Positions 1 through 9,630 of a stretch of 12,197 nt of DNA are shown here, one piece after another. Every line of letters starts with the position of its first letter. The stretch's first letter is position 1. Both the position numbers and the translations under genes were made by a program. The stretch covers positions 1-12,197 of the IMG/VR virus record IMGVR_UViG_2778261689_000011, one strand, 5' to 3'. The DNA is from a virus (Duplodnaviria; Heunggongvirae; Uroviricota; Caudoviricetes). The notes below the pieces were generated by a model, which was given only the letters and a program-made list of their open reading frames with translations, had not been told where the DNA came from and searched no databases.

Positions 1-3000
1 GTTACCAGCAGCGTTAACGGTGATGGTGTGTCCATGTGAACCAATCGCAACGGAGTGCGTATGAGCACCAATACCGACAGTATGCGCGTGTGCACCTGCG
101 CTTGCAGCAGTGCCGGACAGTGAGTGGGTATGTGCGCCAGCAGATGATGTTGCATAGTTTTGATTATGCACAACAGACAATCTTGTTGATGCACTACCAG
201 CACCGGAGTTAGCACTAGCCGTGTTCACGTTGGCTAGTGAGTGTGTGTGTGCTCCAGCCGAGTTTGTAGAGCCGCTCACACTGTGTGTATGTGCCCCGGT
301 GTTATTCGTGGATTTAGTGCCGTAATCAAACGACGATGTGGTTTTCGTCCCCAAATCTGTACTGGATGCGCTGGCGCTGTGGGTATGCGATTTAATGCCG
401 TCCTGTTCCTGAGACAATACGGCCCGACCACTGGCAGGTTTGCCCTTAATCGTCCAGCCACGCATATCAGGGATCACGCCTGACGGATAAGCGGCTGCAA
501 GTTTCGGGTAAGCAGATTTGTCAAAAGCCTGCCCCTGCATCAGGGCATAACCAGACGGAACGGTATCTGATGGCCACGGGATTGGTGCGCCGACTGGGTA
601 GCTTTCTGGTGGAAGATTTTTCGAGGTATAAACTTCTGCCCAGTCTTCCTCAAAACCATAACCGTCTCTTGAAGAACGGTAGAACAGACCACCATTTCTG
701 TAATGCGCCTTCATCTGCAGGGTCCGGCAACTTCCGACTCCGGTATAGAAGTTAACCAGAATATAGCTGTCGCCAGAGCGGGTGACATTGTAAGCGCCTG
801 ATTCGGCATTCCATGGAACGCCACCATCCGCATCGGCATATGTATCCGTTGCCCTTCTGGCAAAAGCAGCCACATGCGCGGCGGTTAAAGTAATATCTTT
901 GGAACCATCAAACTCAACACCAGAAACCCGTCTTGGCGTTTGCAGCTTTGTTGCTGTTAATGCATTACCGTTCAGACTTGCGGACAGTTTGGTTCCAATA
1001 ACCAGTTCGCCGGTTGCGTTATCAATAGCAAACGGTCTTAATGTATTCCAGCCACCATAAACATCACCTTGATTGGTAAGCAGCAGGTAAGTTTTAGCGC
1101 CATCATTACGCCATAATGCACCATACTCCCCACCTATCATTCGAATCTGATTACCACCACGCGCTACAATTTCGTCTGTGGCAAAAAGTTTTTTGCACGA
1201 CAAGTTATCGTTAACGATTAACGAATGAGACTCATAAAAACCACGCCCACTCTTAAAATCAAGGATAACGTCCGCCGCGATACATTCAGTCGCCGGATTT
1301 GTTGCCCCAAACTTATAGGTCGTATCATTAACAACGAGATCAGCACCAGGTGCGGATATTGACAGGCCATCTTCAATAAACGCAAAAACAGGGAAAGCAG
1401 CGCCATCAACATAGAACACAGAGCGCAAATCATCGCCCTTATTACTCATCATTATTGAGTGAATGGCTCGTTCATTGTTTTGATATTGCCAGAACATGCC
1501 ATAAGCATAACGCCCCCTGTCAGTCCAGCCACCAGGCATAACAAATCCGTTAAACTCGCAGTTATTCATCGGATCGCCTGCGGTTCGCGTTGCCGTGGTG
1601 ATAATGACTCTTGATGCCAGTTCGCTTACTGAGCCAGCAGAACGCATAACAACAACAGGGTAATATTTTCCAGATGTTGCACCTGCAGGAGCGTTAACCC
1701 GCACATAACGCATACCACGCTTATCAGCAAAGTCTGTTTTACTGACCGCGTTAATGTTGTTCAGGAAGCATCCCTTATCGGGTATATCAGCGCCGTTCTG
1801 GTCTTTCTGCAGACGTTTCTCTGCATTGTCATAGGCTGATTTTACTGCCTTTGGCGTTGCCGCCAGCGTTTCAGACGTACTGTTGGTCGCACTGCTGAGC
1901 TGTACTATCCCCTTTTTCGTCGTACTTGCATCCTCAAGCGCCACGGCGGATGCAATATCCTCTGCCCGTTTAGCTGCTGTCTCGGCGCGCGTTGCCGCGG
2001 ATTCCGCCGTACTTTTGCTCTGAGCTGCCGCCGTCGCACTGCCAGCAGCCTCTGTCGCCTTCGTGGATGCCGTCGTGGCGCTGCTCTTCGCTGCTGACGC
2101 TTGTCTGGTCGCCTCATCTTTTGAAGCAGACGCCGATGATGCCGATGACGCCGCCGAACTGGCTGACGATGCGGCAGCCGTTTTTGAGGATTCTGCGCTT
2201 GTTTCCGACGCTTTCGCGTTCGTTTCGGATGTCTTCGCTGCGGAAGCAGACCTCGCTGCTGCGCTGGCCTGTTCAGTGGCTTCGCCAGCCTTCGTTGTGG
2301 CTGTTGAAGCAGACGATGCGGCGCTTTCTGCCGATTTTCCGGCGGCGGTGGCACTGGCTGAGGCCTGCCCGGCACTTGTTGACGCTGCACTGGCAGACGA
2401 CGCAGCCGCTGTTTTTGAGCCTGCCGCAGCCGAGGCGCTCTGTCCCGCTGCCGTTTCAGAAGACCTGGCGTTCGTCTCGGACGTTTTTGCCGCCTTCGCG
2501 GAATTTCCTGCCGCCGTTGCCGAGGAAGCTGCACTACTGGCGCTTGATGATGCGTTCGTTTCTGATGATTTTGCCGCTTCTTTTGAGGCCGCCGCATCCC
2601 GGGCCGAGGTCGCAGCTTCTGATGCCTTCGTGGTCGCGGTGGATGCAGATGTGGCTGCTGATTGTTGTGACGCTGAAGCATTCGTTTCTGACGTTTTCGC
2701 CGCACCGGCACTGGTGGCCGCCGCGCTTTTTGAGGACTCTGCAGCGGCAGCACTTTTTGATGCTTCAGTGGCCTTTGTTGATGCCGTTCCTGCGCTGGAA
2801 GACGCTGACTGAGCCGACGACGCGGCCTGTCCGGCTGACGTGCTGGCTGCGCGTGCTGAGTCCGCAGCATCAGCCGCATGGGTTGCCGCCTCACGGGCTG
2901 ATGTGCTGGCATCACTGGCTGACTTCTTCGCGGCTGCCGTGTTCTGTGCCACCGCGGACGCGTTACGCGCCACCTCTTCCACCATCAGTTCAAAACGGCG

Positions 3001-3309
3001 CAGTGCCTCCGGACGGGCATCATCCTCCGTCATGGCACCGAGAAAATCATTCAGCGTACCGGGTTGAGAATCTTCATACACGGTAATGGTCCCGGCATGT
3101 GACGGCGGGAATCCTTCCACCAACAGAATAACGCTGTACTGACCGTACTCAACGTCCATGCTGTAACGCCCGGCTTCATCCGGATTTTCTGAGGCCAGCG
3201 TGTTCACCACCACCGTGGTGCTGTTACGTTTTGCTTTCAGCTGGATTGTGCAGTTCTGTACCGGTTTTCCTGTGCCGTCTTTCAGTACACCTGAAATCTT
3301 TACTGCCAT
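1..3309 (-). CDS. stf: Side tail fiber protein (lambda Stf / Rac StfR-like); ATG at 3307-3309; open in frame to position 1, so the C-terminus lies beyond the window (about 1103 codons present)
   Basis: Minus-strand translation from 3309 gives [20 protein letters not shown]..., matching the lambda Stf N-terminus as recalled. Spot translations at 2941-3000 ([20 protein letters not shown]), 1441-1500 ([20 protein letters not shown]) and 1-120 ([23 protein letters not shown]) are all in the same frame with no stop. Putative SD GGGGTG upstream. Absent from the ORF track only because no stop falls inside the window. Confidence 0.9.
22..385 (-). repeat. Seven HxH motifs (SHTHS, four GAHTHS, GAHAHT, GSHGHT) in the Stf C-terminal region
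   Basis: Direct translation of the minus strand over 1-390: ...KSHTHSAS...[24 protein letters not shown]...[44 protein letters not shown]. Visible on the plus strand as recurring gtgtg(t/c)gc units. Confidence 0.8.
1950..2975 (-). repeat. Ala/Ser/Thr-rich low-complexity repetitive tract (about 340 aa) inside Stf, with recurring KTSETNA / [10 protein letters not shown]-type units
   Basis: GC-rich GCN/TCN codon repetition; translation at 2101-2160 gives [20 protein letters not shown]. Several reading frames on both strands are open across this tract, producing the spurious ORFs 1905..2915(-), 1992..3086(+) and 2063..2812(+). Confidence 0.8.
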
Positions 3310-3373: not shown

Positions 3374-3563
3374 TCAGAACTTATAACCGACACCCACGAT
3401 GAAACCGTCAGTGCGCCAGTCGCCACTGCCGGAGCCTTCATAAGCAATATCAATGGCCACGGATTCGGTCGGGTTAAACTGCACGCCAGCTCCCCACGCC
3501 AGAGACGTGTTGCTGTGGCGACCGTCATCACTTCCGGTCAGCACGTCGTGCGTTTTCCCCTTG
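3374..3563 (-). pseudogene. lom: Lom/Ail/PagC-family outer membrane protein, C-terminal fragment of about 62 aa, interrupted by the IS5-family element
   Basis: Minus-strand translation ...KGKTHDVLTGSDDGRHSNTSLAWGAGVQFNPTESVAIDIAYEGSGSGDWRTDGFIVGVGYKF-stop, matching the Lom C-terminus as recalled. The ORF-track 153-aa ORF 3374..3835 continues into antisense IS sequence and is a hybrid artefact. Confidence 0.75.
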
Positions 3564-5538
<1,975 letters not shown>

Positions 5539-5550
5539 TTATTAAAACTC

Positions 5551-5583
5551 CTGACAACAAAAAACCCACCGCGAAGTGGGTTT
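5551..5583 (-). terminator. Rho-independent terminator between the ParB-like remnant region and the tape-measure fragment
   Basis: Stem aaacccac (5562-5569) / gtgggttt (5576-5583), loop cgcgaa, followed on the minus strand by TTTTTGTTGTT (complement of 5551-5561). Confidence 0.55.
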
Positions 5584-5703
5584 CAGGCGACATAATAGTA
5601 GATATAGCGATTACGAGGCCACGCAATGCTTTTCTCCAGGAGCATCATCGATTTAATTAAAGACACCATCACATCTCTGTAACAGAGTGTACGTAATTAA
5701 CAA

Positions 5704-5937
5704 CTACACACACTGCTCCTGAAAATACTGGTCATCCAGTGCAAAGATCACTGCTTCAAATTCATCGCGCTCAATCAATACCGGATGAGTGGCTAAATAT
5801 TCATTTATCTCTGTCAGAGATAAAGGCAAAGGCACCCCAGCCATTCCAGCATAACGTCGGGCACGGGATATTACCGAATAGGCGTACAACAACTCCTTAA
5901 GCACCGGGTCTATTTCTGGTTCCGGTATCGGTGGCAA
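5704..5937 (-). CDS. Hypothetical 77-aa ORF; possibly a third fragment of the decayed ParB-like gene rather than an independent gene
   Basis: ORF-track ORF; its first codon is TTG (complement of 5935-5937), and the first in-frame ATG is about 30 codons in. No recognisable motif. Confidence 0.25.
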   Translation of the reverse strand: MPPIPEPEIDPVLKELLYAYSVISRARRYAGMAGVPLPLSLTEINEYLATHPVLIERDEFEAVIFALDDQYFQEQCV

Positions 5938-6011
5938 CCTGAGTTTTTCTCGCTTCCATCTTGCCTTTTCCCCCCTTTCTCCCCCGAACTCCGATAACCA
6001 CCGCTGGGCAG

Positions 6012-6371
6012 CTATGGCTTTTTTATCGTATCCTGCTTCTGCTGCTCTTTACCCTGGGCGATGCTGGCTGCTTCTGCAAGGATCTGCCAGTACAACTCTG
6101 GATTCTGCTTAAGCAGCGCGATCCCTCGTTCTGCCGTATATTCCAGTGCAACCTCAACACCATTAACCAGTTCACCAACCCCTTTCCAGTCTTTCAGCAG
6201 ATAACGAGCGGCATTATCAATGAGTAAATCATCAACAGAATCCACCTCGGAAACCTTTGAAATATCAAACTCCTTCGTTCCGACGTGCAAACTGGCATCC
6301 ATTTTCTCAATGTGGCGACGGATTAATGCATTACGGGAGCGATACTGATCGTTATCGCTGCTTCTGCTCAT
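6012..6371 (-). pseudogene. YdaY-like ORF (119 aa); probable C-terminal portion of a frameshifted ParB-like nuclease-domain protein
   Basis: ATG at 6369-6371 overlaps the 3' end of the upstream ParB-domain ORF (6352..6615) by 20 nt in a different frame. Together with 5704..5937 the three ORFs tile about 900 bp. Confidence 0.55.
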
Positions 6372-6615
6372 CCGTCAGGCCAGACAGAACAATGACCGGA
6401 ACAGAATCCATTTTGAGCATTTCAGCCGCCATAACACGACCGTGACCCGCAATAATTTCGCCCTTTTCGTCAATCAGCACCGGATTAGTCCAGCCGAATT
6501 GCTTAATACTTTCTACCAGTTGTGCCACCTGCTCAGTACTGTGCGTCCTGGCGTTGTGCGCATACGGTGACAATTCTTGTAATGGGCGATAGACTATCTT
6601 TAATTTCTCGCTCAT
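6352..6615 (-). CDS. ParB-like nuclease N-terminal domain protein (87 aa, YnaK-like)
   Basis: Translation MSEKLKIVYRPLQELSPYAHNARTHSTEQVAQLVESIKQFGWTNPVLIDEKGEIIAGHGRVMAA... carries the ParB N-terminal signature (NPR-like box plus the G-x-x-R segment). ATG at 6613-6615. The ORF ends at the ParB TDEQKQR motif with no downstream half in frame. Confidence 0.7.
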   Translation of the reverse strand: MSEKLKIVYRPLQELSPYAHNARTHSTEQVAQLVESIKQFGWTNPVLIDEKGEIIAGHGRVMAAEMLKMDSVPVIVLSGLTDEQKQR

Positions 6616-6629
6616 ACAGCCTTGCTTTA

Positions 6630-6666
6630 TGAATAAAACGCACCCCAGCAGCCAGTGCTACTGGGG
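6630..6666 (-). terminator. Possible intrinsic terminator downstream of trkG
   Basis: Stem ccccag (6643-6648) / ctgggg (6661-6666) with a large 12-nt loop, followed on the minus strand by gcgTTTTATTc. Weaker than the other hairpins. Confidence 0.3.
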
Positions 6667-6752
6667 ACGGAGGTGTTGCTGGTAAAGTTAGGTATTGGAT
6701 CAATGAGTGAGTCAACATAATATTAAACTCACAATTATAAATCAGCCATATA

Positions 6753-8210
6753 TTAGGAGCGCCAAAAAAAACCTGAAAACAATATAATAACAGGATAAAT
6801 TTCAAGGCGACCAAGAATCATAGCTATGCACATTAAGCATTTTGCAATGTCATTAAGCACTCCGAATGACGATGCAGTAGCCCCAAAACCTAATCCCATA
6901 TTATTAATACATGCAGCCACTGTTGCAAATGATGTAAGAAAATCATATCCCATACCATTTAACACCAGTATAAAAAACACCGTGAAGAGAGTATAAAGAA
7001 AAAAGAAACTCCATACAGACCTCATTACACGATCTGTAACTATCTTCCCTCCTACATTTACACTCAACAACGCTCTGGGATGAGAAAGCTGATTTATCTC
7101 GTGTTTGCTTTGTTTGAAAAGTATAAGAAATCGAAGTGACTTAATTCCACCACAAGTTGAACCTATACATCCCCCAAAGAAACTTGACAACAGCAAAAAC
7201 ACTATCGTGTGCGTGGGCCAACTTGCATAATCCTGCGTAGCTAAACCATTATCAGTGAGCATGGAGCTGGCAAGAAAAAACGAATGAATAAAACTTCCAT
7301 GCAAGTCATACATACCTATATGCCAGACCTGGAAAGAGGTAACAATGATCACCCCTAAGGCTATTAACAGAAAGAAACGAAGTTCAATATCTCTGATTAA
7401 AGGTTTTATCGTTTTCCTGCTAATAACAATATACCAAAGAGTGAAGTTGAAAGCCGATAGCAGGGAAAAAGAACCAGCCACCAGCTCAACCAAATAGTTA
7501 TTAAAATATCCGATACTCTCGCTATGAGTTGAGAAACCACCAAGCGAAACTGTGGAAATCCCGTGACAAATAGCATCAAACAAAGGCATTCCTGCAAGTC
7601 TATAACAGACAATACAAGCAATACCTAATAAAGAATAAGTTATCCACAGTGTCCGTGACGTATCGGCCAGGCGGGGAGTGAGTTTGTCATCCTTAAATGG
7701 CCCCGGCATTTCTGACTGATAAAGCTTTGCACCACCAATACCCAATAATGGCAATACAGCAACCGCCAGAACAATAACTCCTAAACCACCTATAAAATTT
7801 AACTGTGACCGATAGTACAAATATGCCCGAGGTAATGAACTAACATCATCAATTACAGTTGCTCCTGTTGTTGTTATTCCAGAAACCCCTTCAAACAGAG
7901 CATCAATGAACGTTAAATTAAGTTCTGAGTCAATCCATAAAGGGAATGCACTAATAACAGAAAACAAAATCCAAAACATTACAATTATAATAAACCCATC
8001 ACGGGTACGTAATTGAATGCCAGATTTCTTAGTTGTATACCACGCTCCGCCACCAATGCAAAAAAATATAACGAAAGTTATAAAGAAAACAAACAGGCTT
8101 TTTTCTTTATAAAACAATGCTACAACCATTGGTGGCAACATTGAAAGACTATAGAGCCAAACCAGGAACCCACACATATGAGTAACAACTCTTACATGAG
8201 ATGTATTCAT
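6753..8210 (-). CDS. trkG: Trk-system potassium uptake protein TrkG (TrkH-family membrane transporter), a prophage moron
   Basis: Translation MNTSHVRVVTHMCGFLVWLYSLSMLPPMVVALFYKEK... is polytopic and hydrophobic, matching TrkG as recalled. The ORF-track start at 8228 is a TTG; the first ATG is at 8210. Markedly AT-rich compared with its neighbours. Confidence 0.9.
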   Translation of the reverse strand: MNTSHVRVVTHMCGFLVWLYSLSMLPPMVVALFYKEKSLFVFFITFVIFFCIGGGAWYTTKKSGIQLRTRDGFIIIVMFWILFSVISAFPLWIDSELNLTFIDALFEGVSGITTTGATVIDDVSSLPRAYLYYRSQLNFIGGLGVIVLAVAVLPLLGIGGAKLYQSEMPGPFKDDKLTPRLADTSRTLWITYSLLGIACIVCYRLAGMPLFDAICHGISTVSLGGFSTHSESIGYFNNYLVELVAGSFSLLSAFNFTLWYIVISRKTIKPLIRDIELRFFLLIALGVIIVTSFQVWHIGMYDLHGSFIHSFFLASSMLTDNGLATQDYASWPTHTIVFLLLSSFFGGCIGSTCGGIKSLRFLILFKQSKHEINQLSHPRALLSVNVGGKIVTDRVMRSVWSFFFLYTLFTVFFILVLNGMGYDFLTSFATVAACINNMGLGFGATASSFGVLNDIAKCLMCIAMILGRLEIYPVIILFSGFFWRS

Positions 8211-8347: not shown

Positions 8348-8812
8348 TTACTTTAAACACTGCTCGGTTATGTATTGCTGAGCACCTTCAAGTTGGGCCT
8401 GCATCATTACCAGTCGTTCCCGGAGGGTGAAATAATCCCGTTCAGCGGTGTCTGCCAGTCGGGGGGAGGCTGCATTATCCACGCCGGAGGCGGTGGTGGC
8501 TTCACGCACTGACTGACAGACTGCTTTGATGTGCAACCGACGACGACCAGCGGCAACATCATCACGCAGAGCATCATTTTCAGCTTTCGCATCAGCTAAC
8601 TCCTTCGTGTATTTTGCATCGAGCGCAGCAACATCACGCTGACGCATCTGCATCTCAGTAATTGCCGCGTTCGCCAGCTTCAGTTCTCTGGCATTTTTGT
8701 CGCGCTGTTCTTTGTAGGCGATGGCGTTATCACGGTAATGATTAACACCCCATGACAGGCAGACGACGATGCAGATAACCAGAGCGGAGATAATCGCGGT
8801 TACTCTGCTCAT
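8348..8812 (-). CDS. Rz: Rz i-spanin (inner-membrane spanin subunit)
   Basis: Translation [51 protein letters not shown]... is near-identical to lambda Rz as recalled. The ATG at 8810-8812 overlaps the R stop as ATGA. Confidence 0.9.
8407..8592 (-). CDS. Rz1: Rz1 o-spanin (outer-membrane lipoprotein), embedded in the +1 frame of Rz
   Basis: Translation [57 protein letters not shown]...: lipoprotein signal with lipobox Cys and a proline-rich mature part, lying entirely within Rz. Confidence 0.85.
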
Positions 8813-9285
8813 ACCTCAATCTCTCTGACCGTTCCGCCAGCTTCTTTGAATTTTGCAATCAGACTGTCAGCCTTATGCTCGAACTGACCATAACCAGCGC
8901 CCGGCAGTGAAGCCCATATATTGCTGCAACGGTCGATAGCCTGACGGATATCACCGCGATCAATCATCGGCAAAGAGCCACGCTCTTTAATCTGCTGCAG
9001 CGCTACAGCATCCTGACTTTCTGGAGAAAAATCTTTCAGGCCAAGTTGCTTGCGGTAGGCATCCCACCAGCGTGAAAGAAGCTGGTAACGTCCAGCGGCT
9101 GTTGATTTGAGTTTCGGATTTAGCGTGACAAGTTTGCGGGGGTGATCGGAGTAATCAGTGAACAGTTCGCCACCGACAATAACATCATAACCGTGATTTC
9201 TGGTTTTCTGCCGTCCGTTATCTGTTCCTTCTGACCATGCCACCATATCAAGGAAAGCTTTACGCTGGGAATTAAGTGTCTGCAT
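8809..9285 (-). CDS. R: Endolysin R (lambda-type lytic transglycosylase), 158 aa
   Basis: Translation [61 protein letters not shown]... is near-identical to lambda R as recalled. SD AAGGAG 6 nt upstream of the ATG at 9283-9285. Confidence 0.92.
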
Positions 9286-9288
9286 TAA

Positions 9289-9630
9289 TTACTCCTTATG
9301 GGCACCGAACTTGTTACCGATGACCCTCATTGCCGCACCACGAATAGCATCAACACCAATCAGCCCCACCCCACCACCAATGGCAACAGAAAGTGATTTA
9401 GGCCATCCGACATACTCAAGCGCGGATGCAAAGGTCAGCGTCAGAGCACCACAAAGCAGAATCTCAAGCGTTTTTCGTTTCCAGCCGCCGCCACCGCCAA
9501 AATAGGCAATGCGCAAACCAGCCATAATAATTGACATAACCACTGCACCCAGCGGCGTATCTCCACGCCACCAACTTTGTAAGAGTTCCAGTAAGTCAGG
9601 CCAGGAATGAGGGGCATTGTGCATTTTCAT
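9289..9630 (-). CDS. S: Class I holin with an N-terminal Met-Lys-Met dual-start motif (lambda S-like arrangement)
   Basis: ATG-AAA-ATG at 9630-9622 (minus strand) preceded by SD GGAGGTGA; an in-frame GTG lies 3 codons upstream (9639). Hydrophobic segments, a Gly-rich stretch and a charged C-terminus. Sits immediately upstream of R with a 3-nt gap. Confidence 0.8.
   Translation of the reverse strand: MKMHNAPHSWPDLLELLQSWWRGDTPLGAVVMSIIMAGLRIAYFGGGGGWKRKTLEILLCGALTLTFASALEYVGWPKSLSVAIGGGVGLIGVDAIRGAAMRVIGNKFGAHKE

What the first reader, a model, noticed from the sequence alone, without database searches (positions are those of the whole stretch)
22..385. Seven HxH motifs in the tail fiber C-terminal region, suggestive of a metal-binding needle
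Translation of the minus strand shows seven H-x-H units (SHTHS, four GAHTHS, GAHAHT, GSHGHT) spaced along about 120 residues near the distal end of the fiber. The T4 long tail fiber tip gp37, to which lambda-type Stf proteins are related, has a needle domain in which histidines of HxH motifs coordinate a column of iron ions. The count and spacing here suggest the same architecture.
Basis: partly seen in the sequence, partly recalled or inferred. Interest (0 to 1): 0.5.

Follow-up and report, generated by a model that had tools for sequence, protein, structure and literature searches.

The report
Iron-needle tip of Rac prophage StfR
The seven His-x-His motifs are real and mark the metal-binding needle at the tip of StfR, the side tail fibre of the E. 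coli Rac prophage, which closely matches the solved phage T4 gp37 tip, so the reading is correct but already known.

Summary
The minus-strand ORF (window 3309 to 1, cut 17 codons before its stop) is stfR of the cryptic Rac prophage of E. coli, 1119/1120 identical to K-12 StfR (b1372). It carries exactly seven HxH motifs at aa 975-1094 (window 387-28). None of 100,000 shuffles of the protein reaches seven.

The last 202 residues align to the crystal structure of the T4 gp37 receptor-binding tip (PDB 2XGF) at E = 1.6e-77. All seven motifs sit opposite gp37's seven iron-coordinating HxH motifs. The spacing is the same (32-14-39-14-9-9 against 32-14-37-14-9-9) except across the tip. The 14 motif histidines are 93-100% conserved in 121 homologues. 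The stretch between motifs 3 and 4, the receptor-binding head in T4, is hypervariable.

The tail-collar domain, the C-terminal return strand and the downstream Tfa chaperone gene are all present. The tfa gene and the last 17 residues lie just outside the window.

Metal binding and trimer geometry were not tested here; the monomer AlphaFold model failed (pLDDT 49). The lambda-Stf/gp37 relationship and HxH iron sites are established in the literature, so this is already known and of low interest.

The parts
1..3309 (-). stfR, side tail fibre gene of the Rac cryptic prophage. 1103 of 1120 codons are in the window; the last 17 codons (AENTVKNIAFNYIVRLA) and the stop lie beyond position 1.
   Evidence: ORF and start codon. 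(100% identical to E. coli L9 and others, annotated stfR). (1119/1120 aa identical to K-12 StfR b1372).
2908..3309 (-). N-terminal lambda-Stf attachment domain (aa 1-134), which anchors the fibre to the tail.
   Evidence: Pfam PF08400 phage_tail_N, E 1.5e-65 (that query began 9 aa downstream of the true start). PDB 9E7M/9MGH, Ur-lambda side-fibre collar, aa 1-94, E 5.7e-52.
1024..1323 (-). T4 gp34-like trimerization domain in the shaft (aa 663-762).
   Evidence: Pfam PF21446, E 3.3e-27 (+9 offset). PDB 4UXE/5NXF hits at aa 706-777.
589..876 (-). Mu fibre S-like domain just upstream of the collar (aa 812-907).
   Evidence: PDB 8JU3_A residues 321-415.
391..603 (-). Tail-collar domain (aa 903-973), equivalent to the first part of gp37 D10 (residues 811-881).
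   Evidence: Pfam PF07484 Collar, E 1.6e-11. 59/72 identical to gp37 811-881. D10 boundaries from PMC6957217.
241..390 (-). Ascending half of the needle stem (aa 974-1023, gp37 882-931), carrying HxH motifs 1-3.
   Evidence: 39/50 identical to gp37. Pfam PF03335 phage fibre repeat, best stretch [14 protein letters not shown].
133..240 (-). Tip (head) loop between motifs 3 and 4 (aa 1024-1059). It is hypervariable and is the presumed receptor-binding end of the fibre.
   Evidence: Only 8/40 aligned columns identical to gp37 932-965. Almost no conserved columns among 121 homologues. The interval length varies from 35 to 56 across the family. T4 tip residues 933-959 are the receptor contacts (PMC6957217).
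1..132 (-). Descending half of the needle stem (aa 1060-1103, gp37 966-1009), carrying HxH motifs 4-7.
   Evidence: 31/44 identical to gp37.
379..387 (-). HxH motif 1: H975-T-H977, opposite gp37 H883/H885.
   Evidence: His conserved 121/121 and 120/121.
283..291 (-). HxH motif 2: H1007-T-H1009, opposite gp37 H915/H917.
   Evidence: Conserved 118/121 and 118/120.
241..249 (-). HxH motif 3: H1021-T-H1023, opposite gp37 H929/H931. These two histidines are essential in T4.
   Evidence: Conserved 114/119 and 113/119. H929A and H931A abolish plaque formation (PMC6957217).
124..132 (-). HxH motif 4: H1060-T-H1062, opposite gp37 H966/H968.
   Evidence: Conserved 117/118 and 111/117.
82..90 (-). HxH motif 5: H1074-A-H1076, opposite gp37 H980/H982.
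   Evidence: Conserved 119/119 and 117/119.
55..63 (-). HxH motif 6: H1083-T-H1085, opposite gp37 H989/H991.
   Evidence: Conserved 114/118 and 114/116.
28..36 (-). HxH motif 7: H1092-G-H1094, opposite gp37 H998/H1000.
   Evidence: Conserved 110/113 and 110/113.

Best explanation
The region encodes the receptor-binding tip of StfR, the side tail fibre protein of the cryptic Rac prophage of E. coli. It is a direct homologue of the T4 gp37 tip.

Inferred from the T4 structure:
- Three chains form an intertwined trimer.
- After a tail-collar domain, each chain runs outward as a beta strand carrying HxH motifs 1-3. It then forms the variable head loop that contacts the receptor, and runs back as a second strand carrying motifs 4-7. 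Its last 17 residues return to the collar.
- At each of seven levels, the two histidines of one motif from each of the three chains (six imidazoles in all) point to the three-fold axis and bind one metal ion octahedrally. The metal is iron in T4.
- The result is a rigid six-stranded needle stapled by a column of seven ions.
- The metal sites are structural. They are needed for folding and stiffness, not for recognition. Recognition lies in the hypervariable loop between motifs 3 and 4.
- Folding needs the Tfa chaperone encoded immediately downstream.

Shown here: the homology, the one-to-one motif correspondence and spacing, the conservation pattern, the domain order and the gene context.

Inferred only: the trimer geometry, the identity and number of bound ions, and that the protein is made. 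Rac has lost its other tail genes. StfR can therefore act only on a helper phage or after recombination into an infecting lambdoid phage.
For: -: phmmer E 1.6e-77 to 2XGF_A (T4 gp37 tip) over aa 902-1103, with all seven HxH aligned.
- gp37 motifs lie at 883, 915, 929, 966, 980, 989 and 998. Spacing is 32-14-37-14-9-9 against 32-14-39-14-9-9 here. Identity is 59/72 in the collar, 39/50 and 31/44 in the two stem halves, and 8/40 in the tip.
- the 14 motif His are 93-100% conserved in 121 homologues. The lone non-motif His in the region (H1048, in the tip) is kept in 4/113.
- the T4 stem residues reported as structurally critical are kept. G921 corresponds to G1013, G964 to G1058 and F970 to L1064.
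- in 172 complete homologous C-termini the stem spacing is fixed and only the tip interval varies. Needles lengthen or shorten by coupled changes on both sides of the tip, as expected for an up-and-down hairpin.
- Pfam Collar (PF07484) and Phage_fiber repeat (PF03335) score above their cut-offs.
- tfaR lies directly downstream.
- the isolated phage Turner has a fibre whose last 230 aa are 229/230 identical, so this exact needle is present in an isolated phage.
- Literature: PMC6957217 reports seven coordinated iron atoms along the gp37 needle and that alanine substitution of H929 or H931 abolishes plaque formation. [quoted passage not shown] PMC11705849 reports that HxH motifs are conserved in coliphage lambda fibres.
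Against: - No direct evidence for metal binding or trimer geometry in this protein.
- The monomer AlphaFold2 model was uninformative (mean pLDDT 49), so the axial arrangement rests on homology alone.
- The gene sits in a defective prophage with lomR split by IS5 and only a tape-measure fragment left. Expression and assembly in this host are unproven.
- The window lacks the last 17 codons, which form part of the collar in T4.
Confidence: 0.9

Rival explanations
1. The fold is the same, but the HxH sites hold a different ion (Zn, Ni, Mn) or are partly empty. 'Iron needle' would then be wrong in chemistry although right in architecture.
For: The metal was not tested here. The middle residue of the motifs differs from T4 in several units: T or A here against S in T4 motifs 1, 3, 4 and 5. 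Lambda Stf has variants such as HQH.
Against: The coordinating His and the flanking Gly or small residues are conserved with T4. In T4 all seven sites are described as iron (PMC6957217, PMC11705849). Octahedral His6 sites of the same geometry are expected to select the same ion.
Confidence: 0.07
2. The gene is an inert relic. In this genome StfR is never made or assembled, and the motifs persist only by descent, or because the gene was recently exchanged with active phages. Under this reading there is no working needle in this host.
For: Rac here lacks tail-shaft and tip genes. lomR is split by IS5 and the tape-measure gene is a fragment. The arrangement is the same in K-12.
Against: The 1120-codon frame is fully intact and differs at only one residue between K-12 and the window's strain. 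tfaR is intact. Lambda is known to recombine with Rac stfR (PMC3945230). Phage Turner carries the same tip at 229/230. This rival concerns use in this host, not what the sequence encodes, so it is compatible with the main explanation.
Confidence: 0.2
3. The HxH units are a generic low-complexity fibre repeat (Gly/Ser/Thr/His-rich) with no metal site, and the resemblance to gp37 is compositional.
For: The region is rich in G, S, T and A. The Pfam family PF03335 is only a short 14-residue repeat model.
Against: The alignment to 2XGF is colinear over 202 residues, including the non-repetitive collar, at E 1.6e-77. The spacing is identical to the residue. His-specific conservation contrasts with a hypervariable neighbouring loop.
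Confidence: 0.01

Closest known systems
E. coli K-12 StfR (b1372), putative side tail fibre protein of cryptic prophage Rac
   Same: It is the same gene. 1119/1120 residues are identical and the C-terminal needle is identical. The neighbourhood is the same: trkG, ynaK, ydaY, ynaA, lomR::IS5, stfR, tfaR, pinR.
   Different: One substitution (Q215 here, L in K-12). This strain's Rac also keeps a holin, lysozyme and rzoD lysis cassette next to trkG.
Phage T4 long tail fibre protein gp37, receptor-binding tip (PDB 2XGF; domains D10 and D11)
   Same: Collar, then needle, then head, then needle, in the same order. Seven HxH motifs at the same spacing. About 69% identity overall and about 74-82% outside the tip. 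Both need a chaperone encoded just downstream: gp38 in T4 and Tfa in lambda-type phages, which are reported to be interchangeable (PMC9659904, citing Montag 1989).
   Different: The head loop is unrelated in sequence (8/40) and 2 residues longer, so receptor specificity is probably different. The rest of the protein is a lambda-type side fibre on a siphovirus-type prophage, not a T4 distal half-fibre.
Ur-lambda side tail fibre Stf
   Same: The same N-terminal attachment domain (9E7M, E 5.7e-52). The same collar and HxH needle type, and the same last 24 residues (NAAGNAENTVKNIAFNYIVRLA). The literature describes it as homologous to the gp37 tip and as binding OmpC (PMC12617516).
   Different: Lambda has eight HxH motifs with spacing 42-14-48-14-9-9-9. 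It has an extra 10-residue repeat on the way out, an extra 9-residue HxH unit on the way back, and a different, longer tip loop. The shaft is shorter; in lambda PaPa it is split into orf-401 and orf-314.
Stf of Escherichia phage Turner (PP925837) and other lambdoid isolates (PhiR34_1, mEp332, Kati, ev099)
   Same: Turner's last 230 residues are 229/230 identical, with the same tip. The others share about 97% DNA identity over most of the gene.
   Different: Turner's shaft is only 56-66% identical at aa ~500-800. PhiR34_1 has the same stem but a different, 12-residue-longer tip loop.

Membership tests
T4 gp37-type receptor-binding tip (collar plus HxH metal needle plus head) | Significant colinear sequence homology to the solved tip (2XGF). 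| tested here: met
   phmmer E 1.6e-77, aa 902-1103 against chain residues 27-225.
T4 gp37-type receptor-binding tip (collar plus HxH metal needle plus head) | Seven HxH motifs at the positions of the gp37 iron ligands. | tested here: met
   One-to-one alignment with gp37 883/885 through 998/1000. Spacing 32-14-39-14-9-9 against 32-14-37-14-9-9.
T4 gp37-type receptor-binding tip (collar plus HxH metal needle plus head) | Tail-collar domain immediately before the needle. | tested here: met
   Pfam PF07484, 44.4 bits against a cut-off of 24. 59/72 identical to gp37 811-881.
T4 gp37-type receptor-binding tip (collar plus HxH metal needle plus head) | Hairpin topology: a variable head loop between the ascending and descending motifs, and a C-terminal strand returning to the collar. 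| tested here: met
   A hypervariable stretch lies only between motifs 3 and 4. Length changes on the two sides of the tip are coupled. The conserved C-terminal AENTVKNIAFNYIVRLA is present in the 100%-identical genome just outside the window.
T4 gp37-type receptor-binding tip (collar plus HxH metal needle plus head) | Dedicated chaperone gene (gp38 or Tfa) directly downstream. | tested here: met
   tfaR abuts stfR in strain L9 and in K-12, outside the window.
T4 gp37-type receptor-binding tip (collar plus HxH metal needle plus head) | Homotrimer with the histidines on the three-fold axis, each level binding one iron ion octahedrally. | not testable with these tools
   Only monomer prediction is available, and it gave mean pLDDT 49 with no secondary structure in the needle. 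No metal analysis is possible.
Lambda-type side tail fibre (Stf) | N-terminal prophage tail fibre domain that forms the collar on the tail. | tested here: met
   PF08400, E 1.5e-65. 9E7M/9MGH, E 5.7e-52.
Lambda-type side tail fibre (Stf) | Position after lom and before tfa in a lambdoid late region. | tested here: met
   A lomR fragment lies upstream and tfaR downstream. The order is the same in lambda imm434 and PhiR34_1.
Pfam PF03335 Phage_fiber repeat | Score above the family gathering threshold. | tested here: met
   29.2 bits against a cut-off of 20, in three stretches. The best stretch is [14 protein letters not shown], which is HxH motif 2.

The most novel reading that the evidence does not exclude
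The StfR needle and tip may be kept intact in a tail-less prophage because it serves as a ready-made host-range cassette that infecting lambdoid phages capture by recombination. Phage Turner, with a 229/230-identical C-terminus on a divergent shaft, would be one such capture. The tip loop, which is unlike those of T4 and lambda, may recognise a receptor other than OmpC.

A side point: needle length across the family seems to change in quantised steps, with one extra metal site gained per 10-residue insertion on the ascending strand plus a 9-residue unit on the descending strand. That would make it a modular, tunable ruler.
Probability: 0.3. Interest if true: 0.3.

Novelty: already known. Interest (0 to 1): 0.08.

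Why it matters
This adds little that is new. The gene is the K-12 gene stfR. The homology between lambda-type Stf proteins and the T4 gp37 tip has been known since 1989-1992. The HxH iron needle was solved in 2010, and HxH motifs in lambda-type fibres have been discussed since.

The practical value is in annotation. The last ~220 residues of StfR can be labelled collar, needle (seven predicted metal sites) and head. The receptor-determining segment is pinned to aa 1024-1059. That is useful for anyone swapping fibre tips in lambdoid delivery vectors.

Tried and rejected
- AlphaFold2 monomer prediction of the last 210 aa with a 39-sequence alignment. It gave mean pLDDT 49, pTM 0.20 and no strands in the needle. 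This is expected for an obligate, metal-stapled, intertwined trimer. The model was judged unusable, so no fold search was run.
- Attempts to read Bartual et al. 2010 (PNAS 107:20287) by DOI and by PMC id. The paper is not held. The facts about the T4 structure are cited second-hand from PMC6957217 and PMC11705849.
- The Pfam scan used a start 9 codons downstream of the true ATG (3282 instead of 3309). Its coordinates were corrected by +9.
- Compositional or low-complexity resemblance as an explanation was considered and rejected.
- The first run of the shuffle script timed out and was rerun with a faster method.

Full report
**What is in the window**

The minus strand holds one long open frame. 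It starts at the ATG at window 3309 and is still open at position 1, so 1103 codons lie in the window.

The whole 12.2-kb window is 100% identical to several E. coli chromosomes, for example strain L9, where the gene is annotated stfR. Its neighbours there are an Ail/Lom fragment, an IS5 transposase, a tape-measure pseudogene, ydaY, ynaK and trkG. This is the layout of the cryptic prophage Rac of E. coli K-12: trkG, ynaK, ydaY, ynaA, lomR::IS5, stfR, tfaR, pinR.

The full protein has 1120 residues and is 1119/1120 identical to K-12 StfR. The 17 residues missing from the window are AENTVKNIAFNYIVRLA.

**Check of the observation**

| Motif | Residues | Window |
|---|---|---|
| 1 | 975-977 | 387-379 |
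| 2 | 1007-1009 | 291-283 |
| 3 | 1021-1023 | 249-241 |
| 4 | 1060-1062 | 132-124 |
| 5 | 1074-1076 | 90-82 |
| 6 | 1083-1085 | 63-55 |
| 7 | 1092-1094 | 36-28 |

Fourteen of the protein's 21 histidines are in these motifs. No shuffle of the protein out of 100,000 reaches seven HxH. When only the His-rich 120 residues are shuffled, 47 of 200,000 shuffles do.

**What it is**

A search of all PDB sequences with the last 250 residues hits the T4 gp37 receptor-binding tip (2XGF) at E = 1.6e-77. The match runs colinearly over residues 902-1103 against chain residues 27-225, which are gp37 811-1009. The numbering was checked against H929/H931/I933 as named in PMC6957217.

The gp37 HxH motifs start at 883, 915, 929, 966, 980, 989 and 998, and each aligns with one motif here. 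The spacings are 32-14-37-14-9-9 in T4 and 32-14-39-14-9-9 here. Only the interval that spans the tip differs.

Identity to gp37 by subdomain:
- collar: 59/72
- ascending stem: 39/50
- tip: 8/40
- descending stem: 31/44

Three T4 stem residues are described as structurally critical. They correspond to G1013 (G921), G1058 (G964) and L1064 (F970) (PMC6957217).

Pfam independently finds the Collar domain and the Phage_fiber repeat above threshold. The best repeat stretch is HxH motif 2.

**Evidence from relatives**

The protein search gave 1566 homologues at E ≤ 1e-5.

In an alignment of the top 120 proteins plus T4, the 14 motif histidines are conserved at 93-100%. The only other histidine in the region (H1048, in the tip) is kept in 4 of 113. 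The stretch between motifs 3 and 4 has almost no conserved column.

Among 172 complete C-termini, the stem spacing 32-14-…-14-9-9 is fixed and the tip interval ranges from 35 to 56. Length variants change on both sides of the tip together:
- 42 instead of 32 comes with an eighth motif, as in lambda Stf.
- 52 comes with a ninth motif.
- Five-motif forms lack one motif on each side of the tip.

This is what an antiparallel out-and-back needle predicts.

**How it most likely works**

In T4 the needle is a trimer in which the motif histidines of the three chains bind an iron atom at each level. There are seven such atoms along the needle (PMC6957217). PMC11705849, citing Bartual et al. 2010, describes the sites as paired histidines of HxH motifs in octahedral coordination. 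Alanine substitution of H929 or H931 abolishes plaque formation in T4, and the residues of the tip subdomain make the LPS and OmpC contacts (PMC6957217).

By homology, StfR should form the same seven-site needle, with the receptor-binding head made of aa 1024-1059. The polypeptide C-terminus returns to the collar. In a beta strand, the i and i+2 positions of HxH place both imidazoles on the same face, which fits inward-pointing ligands (inference).

Folding is expected to need TfaR, whose gene abuts stfR. Lambda Tfa is reported to substitute for T4 gp38 (PMC9659904, citing Montag 1989).

The trimer geometry and the bound metal are inferred, not shown. The only structure tool models a monomer, and the model was unusable (pLDDT 49).

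**Biological setting**

Rac has lost its tail-shaft and tip genes, so this locus cannot build a virion. The fibre gene and tfaR are nevertheless intact.

Lambda recombines with Rac across stf and tfa (PMC3945230). The environmental isolate phage Turner carries a fibre whose last 230 residues are 229/230 identical to StfR, while its shaft is only 56-66% identical around aa 500-800. So this exact needle and tip is present in an isolated phage and moves as a module.

The protein as a whole is a mosaic:
- aa 1-94: Ur-lambda Stf collar
- aa 440-521 and 812-907: Mu fibre S-like segments
- aa 706-777: a T4 gp34-like domain
- aa 902-1103: the gp37-type tip

**Comparison with what is known, and verdict**

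Every testable defining feature of the gp37-type tip is met. Only the trimer and metal geometry could not be tested.

The relationship between lambda-type Stf and gp37 is long established (Montag 1989 and Hendrix & Duda 1992, as cited in PMC12617516 and PMC3945230). The iron needle has been known since 2010. Conservation of HxH motifs in lambda fibres is stated in PMC11705849.

The finding is therefore a correct reading of an already known feature in a K-12 reference gene. Interest is low. The most that remains open is the receptor of this particular tip loop and whether the gene is ever expressed from Rac.

Noticed in passing
Related loci L003-L082 and proteins P0001-P0120 (homologues of window 1-630): HxH spacing across the family is 32-14-[35..56]-14-9-9. 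Needles lengthen in coupled steps: 32 to 42 to 52 residues before motif 2 go with 7, 8 and 9 motifs, and lambda Stf has 8. Five-motif forms lose one motif on each side of the tip. This suggests needle length changes by one metal site at a time.
   Followed up: partly
L085 (phage Turner PP925837) 3848-7207, compared with window 1-3309: An environmental lambdoid isolate has a fibre whose last 230 aa are 229/230 identical to StfR, but whose shaft is only 56-66% identical at aa ~500-800. This points to recent modular exchange of the tip between a free phage and Rac-type prophages.
   Followed up: partly
window 1-3309 (-): StfR is a mosaic by solved-structure hits: aa 1-94 Ur-lambda Stf collar (9E7M/9MGH), aa 440-521 and 812-907 Mu fibre S (5YVQ, 8JU3), aa 706-777 T4 gp34, and aa 902-1103 T4 gp37. 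A long Ala/Ser/Thr-rich repetitive shaft covers about aa 130-600.
   Followed up: partly
window 3374-5538: A Lom-family gene fragment (3374-3562, -) is followed by an IS5 transposase (3632-4642, +) and a truncated tape-measure pseudogene (4666-5538, -). This is the same lomR::IS5 arrangement as in K-12 Rac.
   Followed up: partly
window 8407-9630: rzoD (8407-8592), a GH24 lysozyme (8809-9285) and a lambda-family holin (9289-9630), all on the minus strand, lie next to trkG (6753-8210). This Rac variant is annotated with lysis genes although its tail genes are gone. No side-by-side comparison with K-12 Rac was made.
   Followed up: no
L002 1184-1774 and L083 9085-9675 (outside the window, beyond tfaR): The pinR serine invertase sits next to stfR-tfaR, as in the invertible fibre-tip systems of Mu, P1 and e14. 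Whether an invertible segment or an alternative tip exists here was not examined.
   Followed up: no
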